64,000 nucleotides of DNA from the human T2T-CHM13v2.0 reference genome, Homo sapiens. Location: assembly GCF_009914755.1 (NCBI RefSeq), contig NC_060937.1; one strand, given 5' to 3'. The position numbers and the translations under genes were made by a program. Each line of letters opens with the position of its first letter. Positions within the stretch are counted from its first letter, which is position 1. Below are positions 2,177 through 22,310 of the stretch, one piece after another. The notes below the pieces were generated by a model. It was not told where the DNA came from, ran no database searches, and saw only the letters and a program-made list of their open reading frames with translations.

Positions 2177-3136
2177 TAATTTCAGGGGGTTATAAAATTT
2201 ATTGACTGAAATTATTTCTGCCAGATATTCACTTTCAGAGTGTAGATACTTACATGAATTTCAAAACACTTTGTAGATATCTTCATGGTGTCCTAAAAGA
2301 AATCTGACAAGGTTTTTTTAAAACGACGTTAGAATTTCACTTATTTTTAGATGCTTGATAAGGAAAATGAAGAAGTAAAACTAGATGGCAAAAATGCATC
2401 ATGAATTTCTATGACATAAAAGGACTGAGAACTGCAAATGATTGCAGTTTTCTAATCGCTCAACAGGATATTACTTGATGAATCTTCTATATATTAAATA
2501 AGGGGTATGAGATTATACTTCAATTTTGGAGAACATTACAACTCTTAAAGTCTCATGCTGGTGTCCTTTAGTCATAAAACCATTGCATTAATGAGGTGCA
2601 GGGAATTTGTATGAGCAACTCAAAGCAAAAACATCGTAGGCTTTGGAAATCTTTGCCTGCATAATATAGATGCTTTGAACTGGCAACAGAATATCATCTA
2701 CTTCACTGGGTAGTTTTTGGAGATGTTACCTCTTCCTAAATCAAAAGGAAAACAGTATTACTATGCTATTTATTTTTTATGATACCCATGTTGTCATCAG
2801 TTAAACATTTTAATTGAATTTATAGAAGTATTTTGAATTAGAAAAGATTGATTTACTTTTAGGGTAAGATTAGCTAGAAGTTGGAAGAGCCTGAATAAGT
2901 CTTAGGAAAATGTAGTCCATATTTTAACCTTCATAATGTTGTGGTATCATTGTAATATCTTAATTTTTGATAATCTTTAATTTGTTGGATTAATAGGTGG
3001 AACGGAAGCTTAAATATCAGAAATATTTAGTCTTATATGTAAATAATATAATTAATATAAAGTGTTGCTTTTTATACGAAAACTTTAGAGACTTACAGAT
3101 TCTTTTAGCAAATTATTAATATTTTGTATATTCATA

Positions 3137-3432
3137 TTTTTGTTTTTGTTTTTTGAGATAGATTCTCTCTCTGTCGCCCAGGCTGGAGTGCAGTGGTGCG
3201 ATCTCGGCTCACTGCAACCTCCGCCTCCCGGGTTCAAGCAATTCTCATCCCCCAGCCGAGTAGCTGGGATCACAGGCGTGCATCACCACACCCAGCTAAT
3301 TTTTGTATTTTTGGTAGAGATAGGGTTTCGCAGTGTTGGCCAGGCTGGTCTCAAATTCCTGACCTCAGGTAATCTGCCCGCCTTGGCCTCCCAAAGTGCT
3401 GGGATTACAGGCGTGAACCACCATAGCCAGCC
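3137..3432 (-). mobile_element. AluS
   Basis: Full dimeric Alu in reverse orientation. Confidence 0.92.
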
Positions 3433-3786
3433 TGTATATTCATATTGTACTTGCAATAATACAGCATACTGTGTTTCATGTATTACATAATGTATGTATT
3501 GCTTAAAGTATGGTTCTGTGTTCCGGAAGATATCAGGGTAAGGTAAAAAGACCAACGCCTTTTTAAGTTGTACCAACCTGAGTACCAGCTCTGTCCATTA
3601 TTGGCCATTTGCCTTTGAGGAAATTATTTAAGCACCTGGGCCTTAGTTTCCTCTTCTGTAAAATAATATCTGATATTAAGGAAAGATTTGGTCTACTCTT
3701 ACAACATGTTTGGATTTCATTATTTGAAGAAACTTGGGTGTTCCAAGTCCTTATGTTTAAAAACCTAATTTGAAAACCCAGTATTA

Positions 3787-3960
3787 GGCCAGGCACGGTG
3801 GCTCATGCCTGTAATCCTAGTTACTTGGGAGGCTGAGGCAGGAGAATTGCTTGAACCCGGGAGGCAGAGGTTGCAGCCAAGATTGTGCCACTGCACTCCA
3901 GCCAGGGTGACAGAGTGAAACTCTGTCTCAAGAAATAAATAAATAAATACATACATACAT
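3787..3960 (+). mobile_element. Monomer-length Alu (left-arm start fused to right arm)
   Basis: ggccaggcacggtggctcatgcctgtaatcctagttacttgggaggctgaggcaggagaattg followed by an A-rich tail. Confidence 0.8.
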
Positions 3961-5414
3961 AAGGAAGAAAGAAAAAATAACAGTATTGAGGTATAATAAT
4001 GTGACTTTATTCAGGAGAGTCAGTGAAGCATAGTGGTTAGAAGTTCAAGATCCTGAGTGAGTTACAGAATTGATCTCTCCAAGCCTCACTTCCTTCATCT
4101 CTAAAGTGATGGGAATAATAATAATAGTGGTCATTATATGAGATTGGCATGAGGAGTAAGTGAGGTTAACCAGTAAAGCATCATCACCATCATCGTCCCT
4201 GTTTCTACAGCAACAACATTGTGAGGGGGTTTGCTTCTGTAACTGTTTTCCGTTGTATACAGTAACATTTTATTTTTCAAAATTTTACTTTATACTGGAA
4301 CATTTTAAATCTTAGAATATTAACAAGGATAGTATGTATTATCTGGGAACCACCAAACAGGGTGCTAGGAAAGCACGAACTGGTAGTATGTTGTCATCAG
4401 CAGTGAAACACTGCATCAAAATCATGAGTGATCAAACTCCAATGGAATTTATCTTAAATTTGACCTGGTTTCTGAGAAAATTTAATTTCTAAAAAAGGAG
4501 AGAAACATGGTTTTTTTGGTCAGGTTGAGGAGATAAATGTGACAATTGTCCACATGTCACTGTGCATATTATCGATATTTCAGGGTTGGAAAAGGAGGTG
4601 GTGGGTAACTCATTTCCAGCTCCCTAAGGCAATTGTTATCTGAAGTAAAAACAGGAAAGGACTGTGGAAACTCTCACTTTGATCACTGCCCTGGGTACAC
4701 ACTTAGAAACTTGTACTTTGAGAAACTGGCATTGTAACCTGGAGCCTCAACAATTCAATAACTTTCTTTGATATTTCTTATATTTAAATGTTGAGATTAC
4801 TGAAATACATTTCTTTCCCTACTAATATTTAGCTTTATGAAGATTTACTTGGATGTTTTTGGGGAAAGATGTTTTGTTTTGTTTTTAGTAGCTCACTGGG
4901 TCAGTGTTGGAACATAATATTGAAAATGACAAAATGACATGTCATGTATTTACAATTTAATGCGCACTATGTTGTTTTTCCATTATATAAAAATTAAGGT
5001 TGTTTTGCCACTTAATGCGTATAAATTATTTTTCCAATTTAGAATAGCTTTCTGTTTCTGTTTTAAGAACTTGTTAGTCCCTTCTCTTGTGCTTTGCCTG
5101 CATAAAGATTTACAAGAACTATTAGGTGGAATTGTTCTCACTTAGATTTGGTACTAGTTTTATATGTTAGATTGTTAATGACATCGTTTTTATTTTAGCT
5201 TCTACTTTGATTTTAACTAAATTTAATCACATTTATGCCTACCCAGTAACAGAGTGTTTCTAAGGCTGGTTTTTATGGGGGAGGGGAGATTTGTGGGGGG
5301 GCTTCTTTAATACAACATAAAAGCATGATCCATGAAAGAAGAAAGTGGTAAGTTGAACTATATTTAAAATAAGACGTCCGCACTGTAAAAGATACTGTTA
5401 AAAAATAAAAAGAC

Positions 5415-6830
<1,416 letters not shown>

Positions 6831-10723: not shown

Positions 10724-11340
10724 TGAGTATATTTTATTTTATCTTTTCTTTTCTGTGACTCTCTGTGGAAATTGCATGTGTGTCTGTTTGTTTTTCAGGT
10801 TGTAGCATGCAATTGTTGAGGGGTGGACTGTATCATCTTCATCTTGTAATTCCAGTGCTAGTCCTTGTCCCTGAGCATATGGTTGTTGAATAAATGAATG
10901 AAAAATGAGAAAACCAGAAGCTCTGATACTTAACCACAATGACAATTAATTCAATCTGTGACTATCATCCAATTATATATCACAGTAATTTTGTGTTGTA
11001 ATTTTACATATGTATTTTTTATTTTTATTAACACTGATAAAGTTCTCAACTCTTATTACTAACTTAAACTTACTTTAAATATGGAATATTTTAGATAAAA
11101 ATATAATTATTTCTTTTTTCTTTCCAGACGTTGCTGAATTTGAATTGGGATCACATGTGTTTCCTCATCTAGGACCTGGTGGTAAGTCAAACATAAATTA
11201 AGATATAATTTGGAAATACTATAGAAATACGTACTGATTTTAACCAGATACATATGAGTGGAAAGACAGTAAAATGTGATTACTGGGCTGTTTACGTGAC
11301 ATTTTATTTCTCATTATGTATATGACACGGATAACTCTTT

Positions 11341-13500
<2,160 letters not shown>

Positions 13501-15519
13501 TCAAGCAGATCTTGCAAATGAAAACTAGTATTTTTGAGTTTTGCATACTCAAACTGCCAAAATGTCAGCTGTTTAAACAGTCAAATAACTAAGTTGTCAC
13601 TAATACTTTAGTGAAGTGATGATTTATTCTTATTTTATAATTTTTATCACTATATATATAGTGATAGATTCTGATTTAGACAGACATCATTTTGGTATAC
13701 TGATACTGTGGCCATTGCAATGTTTCAATGTATTTCAATAGTTACAGTGCCATCAAACTTAGATAATTTCAGCTTTAAGCACTGATTTATACACATCTTT
13801 TCTTCAGGAAAAATAAAGTTTCCCTAAGGCTTTTCACTCTATCTATCTATCTATCTATCTTTATATTTATGAACTTTTTGGAAGTACTGTTGAAATTATA
13901 GAAAAGTTCCAAGTTTTAATACAAGTAACTCTTTCCCCTGAAGCATGTGAGAGTAAATTGCTGACATTAGGCCAGCACTCCTGATTACTTTAGTAGGTAT
14001 TCCCACAAGTCAGGACACTCTATATAACTACAATGCAACCTTGATAATCAGAAAGTTAACATCAAAGCATCATATCATCCAATCCTCAGCTTCTGTTGAG
14101 CTTTTATTAATTGTCTGCCATGTCTTTTATAGCACAAGGATCCCATTTAGATCCATGGGTTACATTTAGTTGTTGTGTCACTTACACTCCTTCTGTCTGA
14201 ACAGTTCCTCAGGTTTCCTTGACTTTCATGACTCTGAATCTTTTGAAGAGTAAAGTTCAAAATAAAGAATGTCTCTCAGCTGGTTTTTTCTGATGTTTCA
14301 TTATGAATAGGCTTAGATTGTATTATTTTTGGCAAGAGTATCTCAGAGGCGATCCTCTGATCTTCTCATTGCATCCTGTCATTTGACCTTGATTTTGATT
14401 TGTCTTATTACTAGTGATATTAGCATTGATCATTAATGGTGGTATCTGCTGGGTTTCTTTTCTGCAGTGTTGCTTTTTAATCTTGTAATCAGTTAGTATA
14501 TTGTGGGGAGGTAGTTTAAGACTAGGTAAATATCTCTGTTCCTCTTGAAATCTTCAATTTATTCATTTACTTAGATCAACATGGATGCATGGTTTATTTC
14601 ATACAATGGGATATAATTTGTTAATATTTCTAAAAATTTGTTTTTCTTTTTAGACATGTTCTGTTTTGGCAATTTCAGACTTAAAGAAAAATTAAAAGAA
14701 TAGGACCAAAAAGTCTTGAGTTCCATATCCCAAATTTTAATATTTTACTGCATTTGCTTTACTCTTTCTCCTTCTTTTCCTCTTCTCTTTCTAGACAAAT
14801 ATAAATATAGGTACATAATATAGATTTTTCTTCCTGAATTATTTGTGAGTCACAGACATGATGCCTCTTTATTTCTAAATACTTTACTATATATTTCCTA
14901 AAAAGAAGGAATTTTCTTACATAACTATGGTGATCATTATCAAAAGCAAGAAATTGAAATTGATTCAATGTTAATATATAATCGACAGATCTTATTAAGA
15001 TTTTGCCAATTTTCCCCATAATATCCTTTATAGCCAAAGAAAATCCAAGATGGGAGATTTTTACAATTCATGATGTGTTGAGTCCAATTGTCCTCTTTCT
15101 TTATTCTCCTTTAATCTGGGACAGTTTTGTACTCTTTCTTTGATTTTCATAACATCCATGTTTTTGAAGAGTATGGGTCACTTATTTTACTGATTTTTCT
15201 CTCAGTTTGGGTTCATATGATGTTTCCTCATGATTAGATTCAGATTATGTCACTGAGGCAGGAATGTCACACAGGTAATGCTGACTTCTTCCGAATGCAG
15301 CATGTCTGTAGGCTGTCACTTGGTTTCATTGCTGGCCAGTGTTGACTTTGATTCTTTGGTTAAGGAGTTTCGTCAGTCAGATTTGTCCATAGTAAAGTTA
15401 CTGTTTACCTTTTGTATTTCACCAATATCCTGTGTGGCAATACTTTGTGGCTGTATAAATCTCCAGTTACTCCTCAAAATTTCACCCACTAGATTTAGCA
15501 TTGCATTGATTTTTTCCTT

Positions 15520-15838
15520 TTATTTTATTTATTTATTTATGTATGTATTTTTGGAGATCATGGTCTTGCTCTATTGCCTTGGCTGGAGTGCACTTGCACA
15601 ATCTTGTCTCACTGCAGCCTCAATCTTCCAGGCTCAAGCAATCCTCCCACCTCAGCCTCCCAAGTAGCTAGGACTATAGGCATGCACCATCATGCCTGGC
15701 TAATTTTTGTATTTTTTGTAGAGATGGGGTTTTGCCATGTAGCCCAGGCTTGTATCTCTAACTCCTGGGCTCAAGGGATCAGCTCCCTTCAGTCTCCCAA
15801 AGTGCCAGAATTATAGGCATGAGCCACTGGGCCTGGCT
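15520..15838 (-). mobile_element. AluJ
   Basis: Diverged dimeric Alu in reverse orientation. Confidence 0.85.
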
Positions 15839-16426
15839 GCTTTATGATTCTTACTTGAATTAATTATGATGATGGTGGCCACATGATGATTTTCTTATTC
15901 TGTCATGCCTTCTACATGGATTAAAAAATGAAACAAAACAAAAGCAATAAACAGGGGAGAAGGGAAAATATTCTTTTGGTGCTCAAATACTCCCAGACTC
16001 AGCCAGTGGTCACCATTTCAAGCTGATTTCATGTCTTTTGGACATCAATTCATTGCCATCGTTTAAATATTTCTTTATTTTATGGCACACAATGTTCCAA
16101 GCTTATCATCTATTTCTCGGCCCCAGATCTGAAATCAGCTATTTTCCTAGAAGACTAGATTTCTTCTGGGGGAGAATGGTATTTAGAAACCAAATTCTGG
16201 CCACTAGTTGAGGTAGGTGTGGATATTTGCATTGGGATTGTCATTGCTCAGAGACCTACTCCATGAACAAAGCAGAGAAATATATGGATATACATAAATA
16301 CGCAGGCATACATGCTTACATTAATCCACATTTCAGTGTCAAAATATATTCAAAACCATGAGTTTTTGCTGATACTTTCTATTTCAATTCAATCCCACAT
16401 GGTTCATTCTAATTTTTTTTAAGTAC

Positions 16427-16900
16427 AGTTGACCCTTGGACAATCTGGGGAGTAGGGACATCATAGAAATTCACATATAACTTTTGACTGCCCAAAACTT
16501 AACTACTAATAGCTTACTATGGATGAGAAGCCTTACCCATAACATAAACAGTCAATGAACACATATTTTGTATGTTTTATGTATTATATACCATATTTGT
16601 ACAAAAGTAAGCTAGAGAAAAGGAAATGTTAAGAAAATTATAAGGAAGATAAAGTATATTTACAGTACTGTACTGAATTTATCAATACCATAAGTTTACT
16701 TCATGTGTTTCTGAGATGAATCATCTTTCTAAAAATGCAGACAAAGCTACAGACCTCAAACCGTGGTACATATCAAGCAAATCAGCTTTTTCTTATATTG
16801 TTATGTTATTTCTCTGCTTCTTGGAAGCACTTTATGCATCACTAGTGGTACTTTCTTTGGGTTCTATGATTTACACTATTAAATTAAACATGATGAAAAA
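16427..16900. mobile_element. Tigger-family DNA transposon fragment (Tigger2-like)
   Basis: Starts TA-cagttgacccttg, followed by aaattcacatataacttttgact...aaaacttaactactaatagc, typical of Tigger2 ends. Confidence 0.7.
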
Positions 16901-16905
16901 AACAA

Positions 16906-19288
16906 GAAGTCCTAGCTAGAGCATTGAGACAAGAGAAAGAAACAAAGGGGATCTATTTGGAAAGGAAAAAGTAAAATTACCCTTGTTTGAAGATGATATA
17001 ATCTTATATTTGGGAAACCTAAAGACTCTCCCTAAGAACTGATAAACAAATTCAGTAAAGTTGCAGGATAAAAAATAAACATACAAAATCAGTAGCCCTT
17101 GTATATACCAACATTGAACAATCTGAAAAAGAAATCAGAAACTAATGCCATTTACAATAGCTCAAACAAAATAAGATATGTAGGAATACACTTCACCTAA
17201 GAAGTGAAAGACCTCTACAGTAAGAACTATAAAACATTGATTCAAGAAATGGAAGAGGAGACAAAATTGAAAAAAATATTCCATTTTCATGGATTGGAAG
17301 AATCCATATCGTTAAAATGTCCATCCTATGCAAAGCAATCTACAGAATCAATGAAGTCCCTATCAACATACCAGTGATATTCTTCACAGAAATAGAAACA
17401 ATAATCCTAAAACTTTCTGATGGAATCAGAAAACACCCAGAATAGCCAAAGCCATTCTGAGCAGAATAAAACTGAAGGAATTACATAACCTGACTTAAAA
17501 TTATACTACAGAGCTATGGTAACCAAAGCAGCATGGTAACTGGCATAAAAAAAAGACACATGGACCAGTGCAACAGAATAGAGAGGACAGAAATAAATGC
17601 ATACCTCTACAGGGAACTCACTTCAACAAAAATACCAAGAACATGCATTGGTGAAAAGACAGTGTCTTCAATTAATGGTGCTGTGAAAATTGGATATCCA
17701 TATTTAGAAGAATGAAACTAGACCCCTGTCTCTCATCACACACAAAAAATCAAATGCATTAAAGACCTAAATCTAAGATGTCAAACTATGAATCTACTGA
17801 AAGAGAACATTTGGGAAACTTCAGAACATTGGTCTGGGCAAAGATTTATTGAGTAATACCCCTGAAGCACAAACCAGAGCAAAAATAGACAAATAGAATC
17901 ATGTCAAACTCCAAAGCTTCTACACAGCAAAGGAGACAATCAACAAAGTGAGGAGATAACCCACAGAATGGGAGAAAATATTTGCAAACTATCCATCTGA
18001 CAAGAGATTAATAACCAGAATATATAAGGAGATCAAACCACTCAATAGGAAAAAAAATCTAATAATCTGATTTTAAAATGGGCAAAATATCTCAATAGAC
18101 ATTTCTCAAAAGAAGAAATGGCAAACAGGCACACAGTGGCACACAAATGGCAAATAGGTATATAGAAAGGTGCTCAACATCATTGATCATGAAGGAAATG
18201 CAAATCAAAACTACAATGAGATAACATCTCACCCCACTAGAAAGCGCTTTGATACAAAAGACAAGCAACAACAAATGCTGGCAAGGATATAGAGAAAAGG
18301 GAACCCTCATACACTGTTGTTGGGAATGTAAATAAGTACAACCACTATGGAGAACAGCATGGAGCTTCCTCAGAAAACTAAAAAAGAACTGCCGTATGAT
18401 CCAGCAATCCCCCTTTAACAGTCTTTGCTCCTGTACCCCATCAGGAGAGGCAGATGCTATAGCCAAGTATCATGAAGAGGTGGCTGAGCAGTTTGAGAAA
18501 AGCAGCATATTTCTCTATATCCTGTCAGTTCCAGCTGCTATTATGCACAATTATATGATGGATCTAGTGTGGAAAGATGTTAAAGAGAGCATTTGGGTAT
18601 TTATCCAAAGGAATGGAAATCAGTATGTCCAAGAGAGATTGGTACTTCCAAGTTTACTGCGGCACTATTCACAATAACCAATATTTGGAAGCAAGCTATG
18701 TGACCATCAACAGGCAAACAGATAAAGAAGATGTGAGATATACACACACACATATATATACACACACACACCCCCACAATGGAGCACTATTCAACCATAG
18801 AAAAGAATGAGATACTGTCATTTGCAACAACATTGAAGGAACTAGAGGTCATTATGTCAAGGGAAATAAGCCAGGCACAGAAAGACTTCTCATTCATTTG
18901 TGGGAGCTAAAAATTAAAACAATGAAACTCATGAACATAGAGAATTGAATGAAGGTTACCAGAGGTTGGGAAGGGTAATGGGGGTTGGGGATAAGTGAGG
19001 ATGGTTAATGGGTAAAAAATATATCGTTAGATAAAATGAATAAGATCTACTACTTGATAGCAGAACAGTGTGACTACAGTCAACAATATTTTATTGTACA
19101 TTTAAAAATAAAACAGTGTAATCGGAATGTTTGTAACTCAAAGAAATGATAAATGTTTGAGGTGATGAATACCCATTTACCCTGATATAATTATTATGCA
19201 TTGATTGTATGCCTCTGTCAAAATATCTCATGTATTTTATAAATATATACCTACTATGCCTCATACAAATAATTTTAAAAAGAAAACT
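16906..19288 (+). mobile_element. L1MA-type element, ORF2 3' half plus 3'UTR, carrying a foreign insert at 18412-18597
   Basis: Decayed ORF2 text (gaagatgatataatcttatat, gatccagcaatccc...tgggtatttatcc) and an L1MA-like 3'UTR ending in an A-rich tail. Confidence 0.88.
18412..18597 (+). pseudogene. Second, partial copy of the PKS acyltransferase fragment inserted into the L1
   Basis: Translates FNSLCSCTPSGEADAIAKYHEEVAEQFEKSSIFLYILSVPAAIMHNYMMDLVWKDVKESI. About 90% identical by eye to 19609-19789. Confidence 0.85.
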
Positions 19289-19547
19289 ACATGAGTACCA
19301 CAAGAGGTCACTTTCACTATGAAACATGATTTGCTGGCAAGACGAACTGCATCTGTGGAGATGATGAGCATCATTTGGCGTTTTAAGTGGATACCTGCAA
19401 CACTTGAGTTCACTGCAATAGCAACAGGAGGTGGCTATGAGATCATTACAATAGTGCAGTATGTACTAGATCTAATTGTATGCAGTTATGATTTATTTAT
19501 TTTTTATTTTTAAAAGATATATACTTCATTTTTTAGAGCCTTTATAG

Positions 19548-20480
19548 ATTCCGAGAACAGAAATCTCGAAGGCTGTAGTGTCCTTCTCCAGAAGAATGTG
19601 CATGGCAGCCTTTAACAGTCCTTGCTCCTATATCCTGTCAGGAGAGGCAGAAGCTACAGCCAAGTGTCATGAAAGGTGGCTCAGCAGTTTGAGAAAAGCA
19701 GGATATTTTCATATATTCTGTCAGTTCCAGCTGCTAATCACAATTATATGATGGATCCAGTGTGCAAAGACATTAAAGAGAGCATTGGGAATTTGGGGAG
19801 GATGGAGCCAGAAATGGAGCTGATTTCAATAACAACAGGAAAAACAGCTTGTGAAGATTTGACTACTGGCAAATATTGATACAGGAACATTCCAGAGCCA
19901 GTTGGTTTCATCCAGGCTCTCACAACCGCAGCCAAAGGAAGGGAAAATGTCATATTTGTTGAAATAGTCTCTAAGAGAGCCCTCCAGAGAAACATGAGAG
20001 AAGTCATAGGTAAAGAAACTTAATTTTCTCTTCTCTACAACCAAATAAAGAGTACGAGACTCTTTTTGACCTGGTACAAACTCTATTTGAATCTGGACAC
20101 AACCTTAACTGGCCATGCTTTTATGAAGGTTTGAAAATAACTCCAACAGTTTACCTAAGGTATCAGTTTGATCACAAGAGTCTTCTGCTGCAGAACAAAA
20201 TAGCTTACTCCAGTCATCCTCTCACTAGTATTGCAAGTGACAACATAGATTTCAGTTGCTTCAGAACTCGGGATACAGCACCCCATGTTTTTGAGCACAA
20301 AACAATGGAACTACTTAGGTTCCTTGTTCCTGTTTTGTGGAGCCTGGTTTGGCTTGTGTGATGGACAGTTTAAAACCCAGAGCACCTCTGAGTACATATC
20401 AGGTAAGAGTTGCTTTTTTAGCTCCCCGTGTGGTAAGCCAAAAATTTTTAGATATAAAGATGCAGTTGGAATCAGGAGAA
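19548..20480 (+). pseudogene. Decayed animal type I polyketide synthase fragment (C-terminal half of AT, post-AT linker, N-terminus of DH)
   Basis: Manual translation across 3 frameshifts and 2 stops gives these motifs in the correct order: MAAFNSPCSYILSG, VPAANHNYMMDP, GKY*YRNIPEPVGF, VIFVEI, NW, YLRYQFDH, HPL, FEHK-NGTT*VP, VEPGLA. These correspond to the AT (NSP..SG, A[F/Y]HS, YW.RN.R.PV.F, FVEI.P), linker (P.YQF) and DH (HPL, HxxxGxxxxP) signatures. Confidence 0.85.
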
Positions 20481-20713
20481 AGAGGGAAATCAGGAGAAAT
20501 AGGGAAATCACGGCTGCGTGTGGTTTTCGTTTTGGGGGCTCATGAAGCGGCCTGGGCCCTGTGACTCCTCCAGGGATTCCACATCCCAGGTGCTGCGGGA
20601 CCTGCGGGGGCGAGAAAGCTGGGCCGGTGACAGGAGGGCGCAACCCACCCCATCCCCCAGGGAAAGGGCTTCTCCCAGTTCCCCACCCTCCCAGCCCCCG
20701 CCCGGCCCATTAC

Positions 20714-20907
20714 CTCTTCTTCTTGTCTCTCTTGTCCAAGCCAGGGTCCCTGAGCATGAGAATGAGCTCCACTCTGGGGACTATGCCCCTCCAGGCAGCT
20801 CTGTGGAGATCGCCAAGATCTTCCAGGCAGACGTCGTACCCAGGCTCCAGGAAGGCGCTGTCATTGTGCTCGGCTCCACAGCCCACGCCGTCCTCGCTGC
20901 TCCTCCT
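20714..20907 (-). pseudogene. POTE/ANKRD26/CCDC144-family exon 1 fragment with an intact splice donor
   Basis: The minus strand translates [65 protein letters not shown]|gtaatg, matching POTE [37 protein letters not shown]...KRDK.KR. A GC-rich intron-1-like sequence follows (20510-20713). The 5' part is cut by an L1 fragment. Confidence 0.85.
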
Positions 20908-20909
20908 TA

Positions 20910-22310
<1,401 letters not shown>

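What the first reader, a model, noticed from the sequence alone, without database searches (positions are those of the whole stretch)
19548..20480. Fossil of a vertebrate polyketide synthase (AT-linker-DH) in human DNA
Seen: joining ORF pieces across 3 frameshifts and 2 stops gives about 310 codons with collinear type I PKS motifs: AAFNSP.S..LSG, VPAA(N)H(N)YMMDP, GKY*YRNIPEPVGF, FVEI, YQFDH, HPL and the DH catalytic H-x3-G-x4-P (EHK-NGTT*VP). Known: the wording does not match human FASN (CHNSKDTVTISG, MAFHS, EYNVNNLVSPVLF). It resembles, from recall, the animal iterative PKS family: medaka/zebrafish pks1 (otolith nucleation) and budgerigar MuPKS (psittacofulvin pigment). That family is reported to lack an intact gene in placental mammals. 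Inference: this is a relic of the lost mammalian PKS. It was either carried here inside a segmental duplication or marks a paralogous site, and it could help date the loss and reconstruct the ancestral enzyme.
Basis: partly seen in the sequence, partly recalled or inferred. Interest (0 to 1): 0.9.

Follow-up and report, generated by a model that had tools for sequence, protein, structure and literature searches.

The report
Dead polyketide synthase fragment in human DNA
This stretch of human chromosome 13 is a broken leftover of a polyketide synthase gene that fish, birds and marsupials still use, and it is evidence that the ancestors of placental mammals once carried the gene.

Summary
Window 19548-20490 (+) reads, across 3 frameshifts and 2 in-frame stops, as about 311 codons. 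[quoted passage not shown]

- **Significance:** whole-genome E-values are 1e-32 to 1e-34.
- **Closest relative:** the closest named protein is manatee "probable polyketide synthase 1".
- **Phylogeny:** a tree places the relic in a eutherian clade, sister to the marsupial PKSs.
- **Not FASN:** there is no similarity to FASN.
- **Origin of this copy:** it is one arm of an old inverted duplication. The other arm, at chr13:18.45 Mb, is more complete. Flank K2P (Kimura two-parameter) distance is 0.13.
- **Other copies:** at least six further relic pieces lie on chr16, 22, 14 and 2. Together the pieces tile codons 463-1877 of a reference PKS. No KS part was found.
- **Decay:** differences between copies fall evenly on the three codon positions, so the copies diverged as dead DNA.
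- **Present state:** it does not work as an enzyme. It lies antisense inside an annotated lncRNA exon.
- **Novelty:** the papers I read say placental mammals have no PKS, and my searches found no report of this relic.

It is a new member of a known kind, a unitary pseudogene, and of moderate interest.

The parts
19548..19673 (+). Relic segment 1: AT domain, from about 'IPxxEIS' to 'AKCHE' (P0004 residues 463-504). It contains the AAFNSPxSxxLSG motif. It is the most 5' PKS-derived sequence found anywhere in this genome.
   Evidence: tblastn. The 1-nt deletion after 19673 is private to this copy (alignment).
19676..20019 (+). Relic segment 2: the rest of the AT domain (P0004 about 506-620). It contains VPAANHNYMMDP (the AT His motif), GKY[TGA]YRNIPEPVGF and FVEI. 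There is an in-frame TGA at 19877-19879.
   Evidence: Pfam Acyl_transf_1, profile positions 172-277 of 319, E 1.3e-7. tblastn. The TGA is shared with the chr13:18.45 Mb copy.
20020..20298 (+). Relic segment 3: post-AT linker (LQPNKEYETLF...NLNWPCFYEGLK...YLRYQFDHK) and the start of DH up to the catalytic His (HPL...VFEH). P0004 residues 622-721. There is a 1-nt deletion near 20022 and a deletion of about 24 nt after 20184, both private.
   Evidence: tblastn: 66-70% identity over 100-102 aa to P0004 and manatee P0003. Alignment. Open 115-aa frame 20014-20361.
20301..20490 (+). Relic segment 4: DH N-terminal part after the His (NNGTT[TAG]VPCSCFVEPGLACVMDSLKPRAPLSTYQVRVAFLAP...). P0004 residues 723 to about 785. 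The frameshift at 20299/300 and the TAG at 20316-20318 are both shared with the sister copy. Homology to the sister copy ends at 20490.
   Evidence: tblastn 72% identity over 60 aa. Read-through. It aligns to manatee residues 375-466, where Pfam places PKS_DH_N (369-465). End of homology.
18393..18611 (+). Partial second copy of the AT fragment (manatee residues 151-222) in a single frame. It is about 87% identical in DNA to 19609-19794 and about 87.5% identical to the chr13:18.45 Mb copy.
19103..19547 (+). Sequence directly 5' of the relic. It is also present 5' of the sister copy, so the 5' truncation of the gene is shared. Bases 19400-19496 are an interspersed repeat with many genomic copies.
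   Evidence: K2P 0.26 between the two copies, poorly aligned
10752..15534 (+). Non-PKS flank of the same duplicated block. Bases 10752-11326 and 13516-15534 are collinear with chr13:18459411-18456375 (inverted), interrupted by a repeat at 11352-13395. In the window, 15535-19102 is an extra insertion of about 3.5 kb.
   Evidence: K2P 0.134 and 0.129.
20491..21030 (-). Junction with a different duplicon. This GC-rich sequence and the annotated exon 20714-20905 match many loci on contigs 8, 15, 2, 22, 21, 14, 18, 17 and 16. By recall these are the POTE / ANKRD26 / CCDC144 gene-family sites.
   Evidence: Exon coordinates come from the hub's gene table.
16566..20601 (-). Annotated terminal exon of lncRNA LOC101928764 (NR_172129.1). 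The whole PKS relic lies inside it, antisense.

Best explanation
Window 19548-20490 is a non-functional fragment of the eutherian ortholog of the vertebrate iterative type I polyketide synthase (domain order KS-AT-DH-KR-ACP; the family of fish pks1 and budgerigar MuPKS). It is a unitary pseudogene, because the human genome has no working copy. The fragment covers only the second half of AT, the post-AT linker and the first part of DH. It lacks the KS domain, the AT active-site serine region, the rest of DH, KR and ACP. It carries 3 frameshifts and 2 stops, so it cannot make an enzyme. It reached this site as part of an old inverted intrachromosomal duplication of a block that already held a 5'-truncated dead gene. 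The partner at chr13:18.45 Mb keeps more of the gene. The window copy was then cut at 20490 by juxtaposition with an ANKRD26/POTE-type duplicon. It gained two private 1-nt deletions and a 24-nt deletion. It was probably partly homogenised with its partner by gene conversion. All human relic pieces seem to descend from one gene that had already lost coding constraint before the copies separated. Today the DNA is simply part, in antisense, of an annotated lncRNA exon. Shown: homology, lesions, duplication structure, absence of an intact gene. Inferred: dates, gene conversion, single-origin scenario.
For: Domain identity:
- Pfam AT hits are 31.8 bits for the window piece and 44.3 bits for the sister copy (cut-off 32.7).
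- The best solved-structure matches are bacterial PKS ATs (CurL, 1.6e-11). None of the 35 hits at E <= 0.01 is named a fatty acid synthase.

Family:
- The sister-copy read-through is 65% identical over 90% of its length to manatee 'probable polyketide synthase 1' and 62% to P0004. It is 42-46% identical to fish-type PKSs (5 hits among 300 candidates).
- Window tblastn identities are 48-72% to P0003/P0004 and 35-47% to a carp PKS.
- In the careful tree (36 rows x 322 columns, LG+C20+F+G4) mammals get 100/99, the eutherian clade (P0004, manatee, two human rows) 100/100, human+manatee 98/80, and the two chr13 copies 100/100.

Not FASN: 4 HSPs, all with E >= 4.9.

No intact gene in the genome:
- The AT profile scan finds only the contig-17, contig-22 and two chr13 sites.
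- KS_C finds only contigs 3 and 17.
- P0004 residues 56-462 find only those same loci weakly (4 matches, best 2.9e-7).
- The 28 genome-wide matches to P0004 include 25 with stop codons inside the match; the 3 without are short pieces (62-102 residues).

Duplication:
- Collinear inverted blocks.
- Flank K2P 0.134 and 0.129.

Neutral decay: differences between copies are even over codon positions in 7 of 7 pairs tested. For example, window vs sister 15/15/19 (p 0.73) and chr13 vs chr16 lineage 59/58/63 (p 0.88).

The region is contiguous without introns, as expected. In budgerigar MuPKS, exon 6 holds residues 428 to 1957 (passages of PMC11739604).
Against: - The DH part has no direct Pfam support. 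PKS_DH_N and PS-DH genome scans hit no relic, and hmmscan of the DH pieces gave nothing at E <= 10. The DH call rests on homology to the manatee and P0004 regions that carry those domains.
- The window AT piece is 0.9 bit under Pfam's cut-off.
- The three lesions shared with the sister copy all lie in tracts of unusually low divergence, which may be gene-conversion tracts. They therefore do not by themselves prove death before the duplication. That inference rests on the shared 5' truncation and on the codon-position test.
- The first codon-position attempt, which used protein-guided mapping, was visibly mis-registered, so I replaced it.
- The larger tree with all human pieces used the simpler LG+G4 model, because the mixture run did not finish. 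The grouping of all human rows has SH-aLRT of only 90.
- Whether the manatee and P0004 genes are functional is unknown.
Confidence: 0.93

Rival explanations
1. The low-divergence tracts inside the relic are kept by selection on a present-day non-coding function, for example in the antisense lncRNA exon or a regulatory element, rather than by gene conversion.
For: Between the two chr13 copies, 19648-19947 has 6 differences in 300 aligned bases and 20248-20447 has 7 in 200. By contrast 19948-20247 has 35 in 294, and the flanks show about 12%. The relic lies in an annotated lncRNA exon (hub table).
Against: The third, partial copy at 18393-18611 covers the first tract. It is about equally far from both full copies (87% and 87.5%), at the flank level of divergence. 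That fits homogenisation of the two full copies after the partial copy split off. No conservation or expression data were available. The tracts contain the shared stop codons, so any constraint could not be on coding.
Confidence: 0.1
2. The fragment is a decayed copy of human FASN (or of the mitochondrial malonyltransferase), not of a separate PKS gene.
For: FASN shares the same domain order, and the Pfam AT profile hits both.
Against: tblastn of the relic read-throughs against seven loci covering the FASN AT and DH exons and the contig-22 AT exon gave 4 HSPs, all E >= 4.9 and <= 16.9 bits. Identity to manatee PKS is 65%. No fatty acid synthase appears among 35 PDB hits.
Confidence: 0.01
3. 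The fragment is bacterial or other foreign DNA (assembly contamination or horizontal transfer).
For: The best solved-structure matches are bacterial PKS modules.
Against: The nearest sequences are mammalian, and the gene tree follows vertebrate phylogeny, with bacteria and a clam as distant outgroups. The fragment sits in human duplicated blocks with human interspersed repeats and has diverged paralogs on five chromosomes.
Confidence: 0.01
4. Part of the relic is still translated into a small protein (a domesticated AT- or DH-derived peptide).
For: An open 115-codon frame lies at 20014-20361.
Against: That frame has no Pfam or PDB hit on its own. It spans a linker and then runs out of the PKS frame. 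Differences between copies are even over codon positions. The annotated transcript runs on the opposite strand (hub table).
Confidence: 0.02

Closest known systems
Manatee 'probable polyketide synthase 1' (P0003, 1007 aa, NCBI predicted model) and the unnamed 1877-aa PKS P0004
   Same: Same gene lineage: 65% and 62% identity to the sister-copy read-through, and 48-72% per segment to the window. They form one clade with 100/100 support. Domains and motifs are collinear.
   Different: Both are long open frames that carry AT and DH domains per Pfam. The human sequence is a 311-codon fragment with frameshifts and stops. Whether the manatee model is a working gene is unknown; it lacks KS, KR and ACP.
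Marsupial PKS genes (e.g. opossum 'mycocerosic acid synthase-like' P0010; KS-AT-DH-KR-ACP)
   Same: Sister clade within mammals, with 54-56% identity to P0004 over residues 440-1120. Hojo et al. list them as the only mammalian PKSs (PMC4604110, Table 2 passage).
   Different: They are intact, about 2100 aa, and fall into two marsupial paralog groups. The human relic is dead and partial.
Fish pks1 (otolith nucleation) and budgerigar MuPKS (psittacofulvin pigment)
   Same: Same vertebrate PKS family. A croaker protein named pks1 and bird PKSs sit in the same tree. The relic corresponds to part of the giant last exon (PMC11739604 passages).
   Different: 35-47% identity to a carp PKS. These are functional enzymes with known phenotypes (PMC4604110 and PMC6531356 passages and abstracts; MuPKS function from the abstracts in the search listing and passages of PMC11739604).
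Human FASN
   Same: Same overall megasynthase architecture and AT fold family (Pfam Acyl_transf_1 hits both).
   Different: No detectable direct sequence similarity. FASN is intact and essential; the relic is from a separate gene.

Membership tests
Vertebrate iterative type I PKS (KS-AT-DH-KR-ACP; pks1 / MuPKS family) | Acyltransferase domain recognisable by profile | tested here: met
   The window piece scores 31.8 bits, E 1.3e-7, 0.9 bit under Pfam's cut-off. The sister copy scores 44.3 bits, above the cut-off. The genome scan gives 29.6 and 42.7 bits. Only profile positions about 151-277 of 319 are present.
Vertebrate iterative type I PKS (KS-AT-DH-KR-ACP; pks1 / MuPKS family) | Closest relatives and tree position inside the vertebrate PKS clade, apart from FAS | tested here: met
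   (eutherian clade 100/100; mammals 100/99); no similarity to FASN
Vertebrate iterative type I PKS (KS-AT-DH-KR-ACP; pks1 / MuPKS family) | Dehydratase domain with HxxxGxxxxP | tested here: inconclusive
   The motif reads EH-[broken codon]-NNGTT-[TAG]-VP, and the segment aligns to the manatee region where Pfam places PKS_DH_N. However, no Pfam DH hit was obtained on the human pieces or in genome scans.
Vertebrate iterative type I PKS (KS-AT-DH-KR-ACP; pks1 / MuPKS family) | AT active-site serine motif (GHSxG) and ketosynthase domain | tested here: not met
   The relic starts downstream of that motif. No KS or AT-N relic was found in the window or the genome. The sequence is therefore a fragment of a member, not a member able to act.
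Vertebrate iterative type I PKS (KS-AT-DH-KR-ACP; pks1 / MuPKS family) | Open reading frame over the full domain set | tested here: not met
   3 frameshifts, 2 stops, and truncation at both ends
Unitary pseudogene (dead gene with no working copy in the same genome) | No intact paralog in the genome; functional orthologs in other species | tested here: met
   Genome-wide, 25 of the 28 P0004 matches have stop codons inside the match; the 3 without are short pieces (62-102 residues). Intact genes exist in marsupials, reptiles, birds, amphibians and fish. Caveat: one search used a stricter first look, so weak pieces may have been missed.
Segmental-duplication copy | Collinear homology extending beyond the gene fragment into the flanks at a second locus | tested here: met
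   Window 10752-20490 vs chr13:18459411-18454659, inverted; flank K2P 0.13

The most novel reading that the evidence does not exclude
The human genome still holds about two thirds of a placental-mammal polyketide synthase, from the AT domain to the C-terminus (reference codons 463-1877). It is scattered as at least eight decayed pieces in pericentromeric-type duplicons on chr13, 16, 22, 14 and 2. All pieces descend from one gene that died tens of millions of years ago. Long open frames survive in the manatee and in the unnamed record P0004, which groups with it. If so, the PKS was not lost at the origin of placentals, as current papers suggest, but was lost independently and later in different placental lineages. 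The human relics then allow the loss to be dated and the ancestral locus to be found.
Probability: 0.55. Interest if true: 0.65.

Novelty: new member of a known kind. Interest (0 to 1): 0.55.

Why it matters
Two papers that surveyed animal PKSs say placental mammals have none (passages of PMC4604110 and PMC10764717). The second suggests the loss happened at the transition to eutherians.

A clearly recognisable relic in human DNA, nested with a manatee open frame in a eutherian clade, changes the question. "Absent" becomes "when, how often and why was it lost". That can be answered by tracing these relics and their lesions through primate and other mammalian genomes.

This bears on what the enzyme did in early mammals. 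In fish it is needed to start ear-stone mineralisation, and in parrots it makes feather pigment.

It has no practical or medical consequence that I can see. The sequence itself is inert.

Tried and rejected
- **Single ORF pieces were too short.** Pfam on six pieces gave one weak AT hit (E 0.2), and PDB gave nothing. The AT domain became significant only when frames were read through with X at the stops.
- **DH and KS profile scans missed the relics.** Pfam PKS_DH_N, PS-DH and Ketoacyl-synt_C scans of the whole genome found only the contig-17 locus, a contig-3 locus and two chance-level hits. hmmscan of the DH pieces gave 0 families.
- **No RNA family.** Rfam on 18000-21500 gave 0 matches.
- **Large mixture-model tree did not finish.** Two runs of 40 rows x 1432 columns failed to complete. 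I replaced them with LG+G4 and with a smaller careful mixture-model tree.
- **First codon-position test was unreliable.** Mapping through protein HSPs gave inflated differences, for example 24% per site for a pair that is 96% identical. I judged it mis-registered and redid it on direct DNA alignments.
- **Dating from the relic itself was rejected.** K2P 0.069-0.075 is uneven along the relic, so I used the flank divergence instead.
- **Literature.** Searches for a prior report found none. 'polyketide synthase' + 'ANKRD26' gave 0 papers, + 'eutherian' gave 1, and + 'unitary pseudogene' gave 1 unrelated fungal preprint.

Full report
**1. Observation**

The stretch exists as described.
- tblastn with three vertebrate PKS proteins gives four collinear segments in three frames:

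| Window segment | P0004 residues |
|---|---|
| 19548-19673 | 463-504 |
| 19676-20116 | 506-666 |
| 20020-20298 | 622-721 |
| 20301-20480 | 723-779 |

- That is 3 frameshifts and 2 in-frame stops (TGA 19877-19879, TAG 20316-20318) over about 311 codons.
- In a six-frame search of the whole 3.1-Gb assembly, the window pieces score E 1.8e-34 and 1.1e-32.

**2. What it is**

Read with X at its one stop, window 19673-20023 hits Pfam Acyl_transf_1 at E 1.3e-7 with 31.8 bits (cut-off 32.7). The better-preserved sister copy scores 44.3 bits.

A genome-wide scan with that profile returned 9 matches from 10 candidates:
- six exon-sized hits on contig 17 (the FASN locus, name by recall);
- one on contig 22;
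- two on chr13, namely this site and chr13:18455176-18455568.

Against solved structures, the sister-copy read-through matches 35 distinct sequences at E <= 0.01. CurL (1.6e-11) and other bacterial PKS acyltransferases lead, and none is named a fatty acid synthase.

Against 5.8 billion proteins, 5 hits passed among 300 candidates:
- manatee 'probable polyketide synthase 1' (P0003, 65% identity, 90% coverage);
- an unnamed 1877-aa PKS (P0004, 62%);
- three fish-type PKSs (42-46%).

P0004's own nearest named relatives are marsupial PKSs (54-56%), then turtle, crocodilian, bird, lizard, amphibian and fish proteins (207 hits, best 120 listed, no named placental mammal among them). A search with the manatee protein listed no other named placental mammal among its best 120 of 262.

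A careful tree of the AT-linker-DH part (36 rows x 322 columns, LG+C20+F+G4) follows the vertebrate species tree:

| Grouping | Support |
|---|---|
| Mammals | 100/99 |
| Eutherian clade (P0004, manatee, two chr13 human rows) | 100/100 |
| Human + manatee | 98/80 |

The relic has no detectable similarity to the FASN or contig-22 AT loci: 4 HSPs, all E >= 4.9.

The DH assignment is indirect.
- The motif reads EH, a broken codon, NNGTT, TAG, VP.
- The segment aligns at 53-72% identity to the manatee and P0004 regions that carry Pfam PKS_DH_N.
- However, no Pfam DH model hits the human pieces themselves.

**3. Lesions**

Aligned with the sister copy, the window copy has these private lesions:
- a 1-nt deletion after 19673;
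- a 1-nt deletion near 20022;
- a deletion of about 24 nt after 20184.

Shared by both copies:
- the TGA at 19877;
- the frameshift right after the DH histidine;
- the TAG at 20316;
- the point at which PKS homology begins, preceded in both by the same non-PKS sequence (19103-19547).

**4. How it got here**

Window 10752-11326, 13516-15534 and 19103-20490 are collinear, in inverted orientation, with chr13:18459411-18454659. The window carries an extra 3.5 kb at 15535-19102.

The sister locus keeps much more of the gene: P0004 residues 482-1110 and 1675-1875. The window copy is therefore the shorter arm of an old intrachromosomal duplication of an already 5'-truncated gene.

Flank divergence is K2P 0.134 and 0.129. 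With recalled neutral rates of 1.0-2.2e-9 per site per year, this is roughly 30-65 million years. This is an inference.

Inside the relic, divergence is lower and uneven:

| Window tract | Differences / aligned bases |
|---|---|
| 19648-19947 | 6 / 300 |
| 20248-20447 | 7 / 200 |
| 19948-20247 | 35 / 294 |

A third, partial copy at 18393-18611 is about equally distant from both full copies (87% and 87.5%). I read this as gene conversion between the two full copies. As a consequence, the three shared point lesions all sit in the low-divergence tracts and are not independent proof that the gene was dead before the duplication.

At 20490 homology ends. The next 540 bases match many loci on contigs 8, 15, 2, 22, 21, 14, 18, 17 and 16. 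By recall these are POTE / ANKRD26 / CCDC144 family sites, and the hub table calls the local lncRNA 'coiled-coil domain-containing protein 144B'.

**5. The wider set of relics**

P0004 finds 28 decayed matches in the genome. After fetching the loci, tblastn and blastn resolve them as follows:

| Locus | P0004 residues |
|---|---|
| chr13:18.45 Mb | 482-1110 and 1675-1875 |
| This window | 463 to about 790 |
| chr16:52.26 Mb | 814-1307 |
| chr16:39.16 Mb | 1319-1877 |
| chr22:16.37 Mb | 1131-1877 |
| chr14 (two sites) | 1131-1877 |
| chr2:132.13 Mb | 1131-1877 |

- The chr13 pair differs from the others by about 21% in substitutions, or 70-75% blastn identity.
- chr16 vs chr22/14/2 is about 82% identical; chr2 vs chr22 is 95.9%; chr22 vs chr14 is 99.7%.
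- In a 40-row tree (LG+G4 only, because the mixture model did not finish), all six human rows fall in the eutherian clade (100). They group together with SH-aLRT 90.
- Differences are spread evenly over codon positions in all 7 pairs tested (p 0.24-0.88). I see no sign that any two copies diverged under coding constraint. The simplest history is one dead gene, duplicated repeatedly.
- Nothing upstream of codon 463 was found. KS_C hits only contigs 3 and 17, and P0004 residues 56-462 hit only those loci weakly.

**6. Present role**

There is none as an enzyme. Per the hub's table, the relic lies antisense within the terminal exon (16566-20601, minus strand) of lncRNA LOC101928764. No RNA family matches.

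**7. Literature**

- Hojo et al. 2015 (PMC4604110; passages read, including Table 2) list no PKS for human, cattle, dog, dolphin and mouse. They list intact genes in opossum and Tasmanian devil and a pseudogene in platypus. They also call for a more intense search.
- Lin et al. [quoted passage not shown]
- PMC11739604 (passages read) gives six exons for MuPKS, with residues 428 to 1957 in exon six. This fits an intron-free relic.
- PMC6531356 (passages read) describes zebrafish pks1.
- Six searches found no report of a human or placental relic.
- The library lacks most subscription papers. I could not see GENCODE, so prior annotation cannot be excluded.

**8. Verdict**

This is a real, ordinary-in-kind but previously unreported (as far as I could search) unitary pseudogene fragment. 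Interest is moderate. It refines the story of PKS loss in placental mammals and makes that loss datable, but the sequence is inert.

Noticed in passing
L039 (chr16:52258001-52268000) 2532-5387 and relic end at 5376; L040 (chr16:39160001-39170000) relic start at 6218 and satellite from 6265 to at least 10000: The chr16 relic is split between reference codons about 1307 and 1319 into two pieces that lie 13.1 Mb apart on the same strand. Each piece abuts a GGAAT-type satellite (TRF units such as ATCGAATGGAATC) exactly at the break. It looks as if a satellite block (the 16q11.2 block, by recall) grew inside the dead gene.
   Followed up: partly
chr22:16264377 vs 16368804; chr14:13281061 vs 13385482 and 13744996 vs 13640813; chr2:132026632 vs 132127034; chr16:52365321 vs 52264929: At five loci the C-terminal PKS relic lies about 100 kb from a match to the ANKRD26/POTE-type sequence that directly abuts the relic in the window. 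This constant spacing suggests that the two travelled together in one large duplicon, or were ancestral neighbours.
   Followed up: no
window 19648-19947 and 20248-20447: Tracts with 2-3.5% divergence from the chr13:18.45 Mb copy, against about 12% in the flanks and in 19948-20247. Gene conversion is the likely cause, but selection is not excluded.
   Followed up: partly
window 19400-19496: A 96-base element with at least 37 further listed copies genome-wide at 82-89% identity. It lies directly upstream of the relic and is not in the hub's list of masked stretches. Its family was not identified.
   Followed up: no
P0003 and P0004: In both proteins of the eutherian clade, the AT active-site motif that reads GHSVG or GHSIG in the fish sequences reads GFSVG (manatee) and GSSVG (P0004). 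This was read by eye from the printed sequences. It might mean altered or relaxed AT function in placental lineages that keep an open frame.
   Followed up: no
window 20470-20505: A short tandem duplication (GGAGAAAGAGGGAAATCA / GGAGAAATAGGGAAATCA) sits exactly at the junction between the PKS relic and the GC-rich ANKRD26/POTE-type sequence.
   Followed up: no
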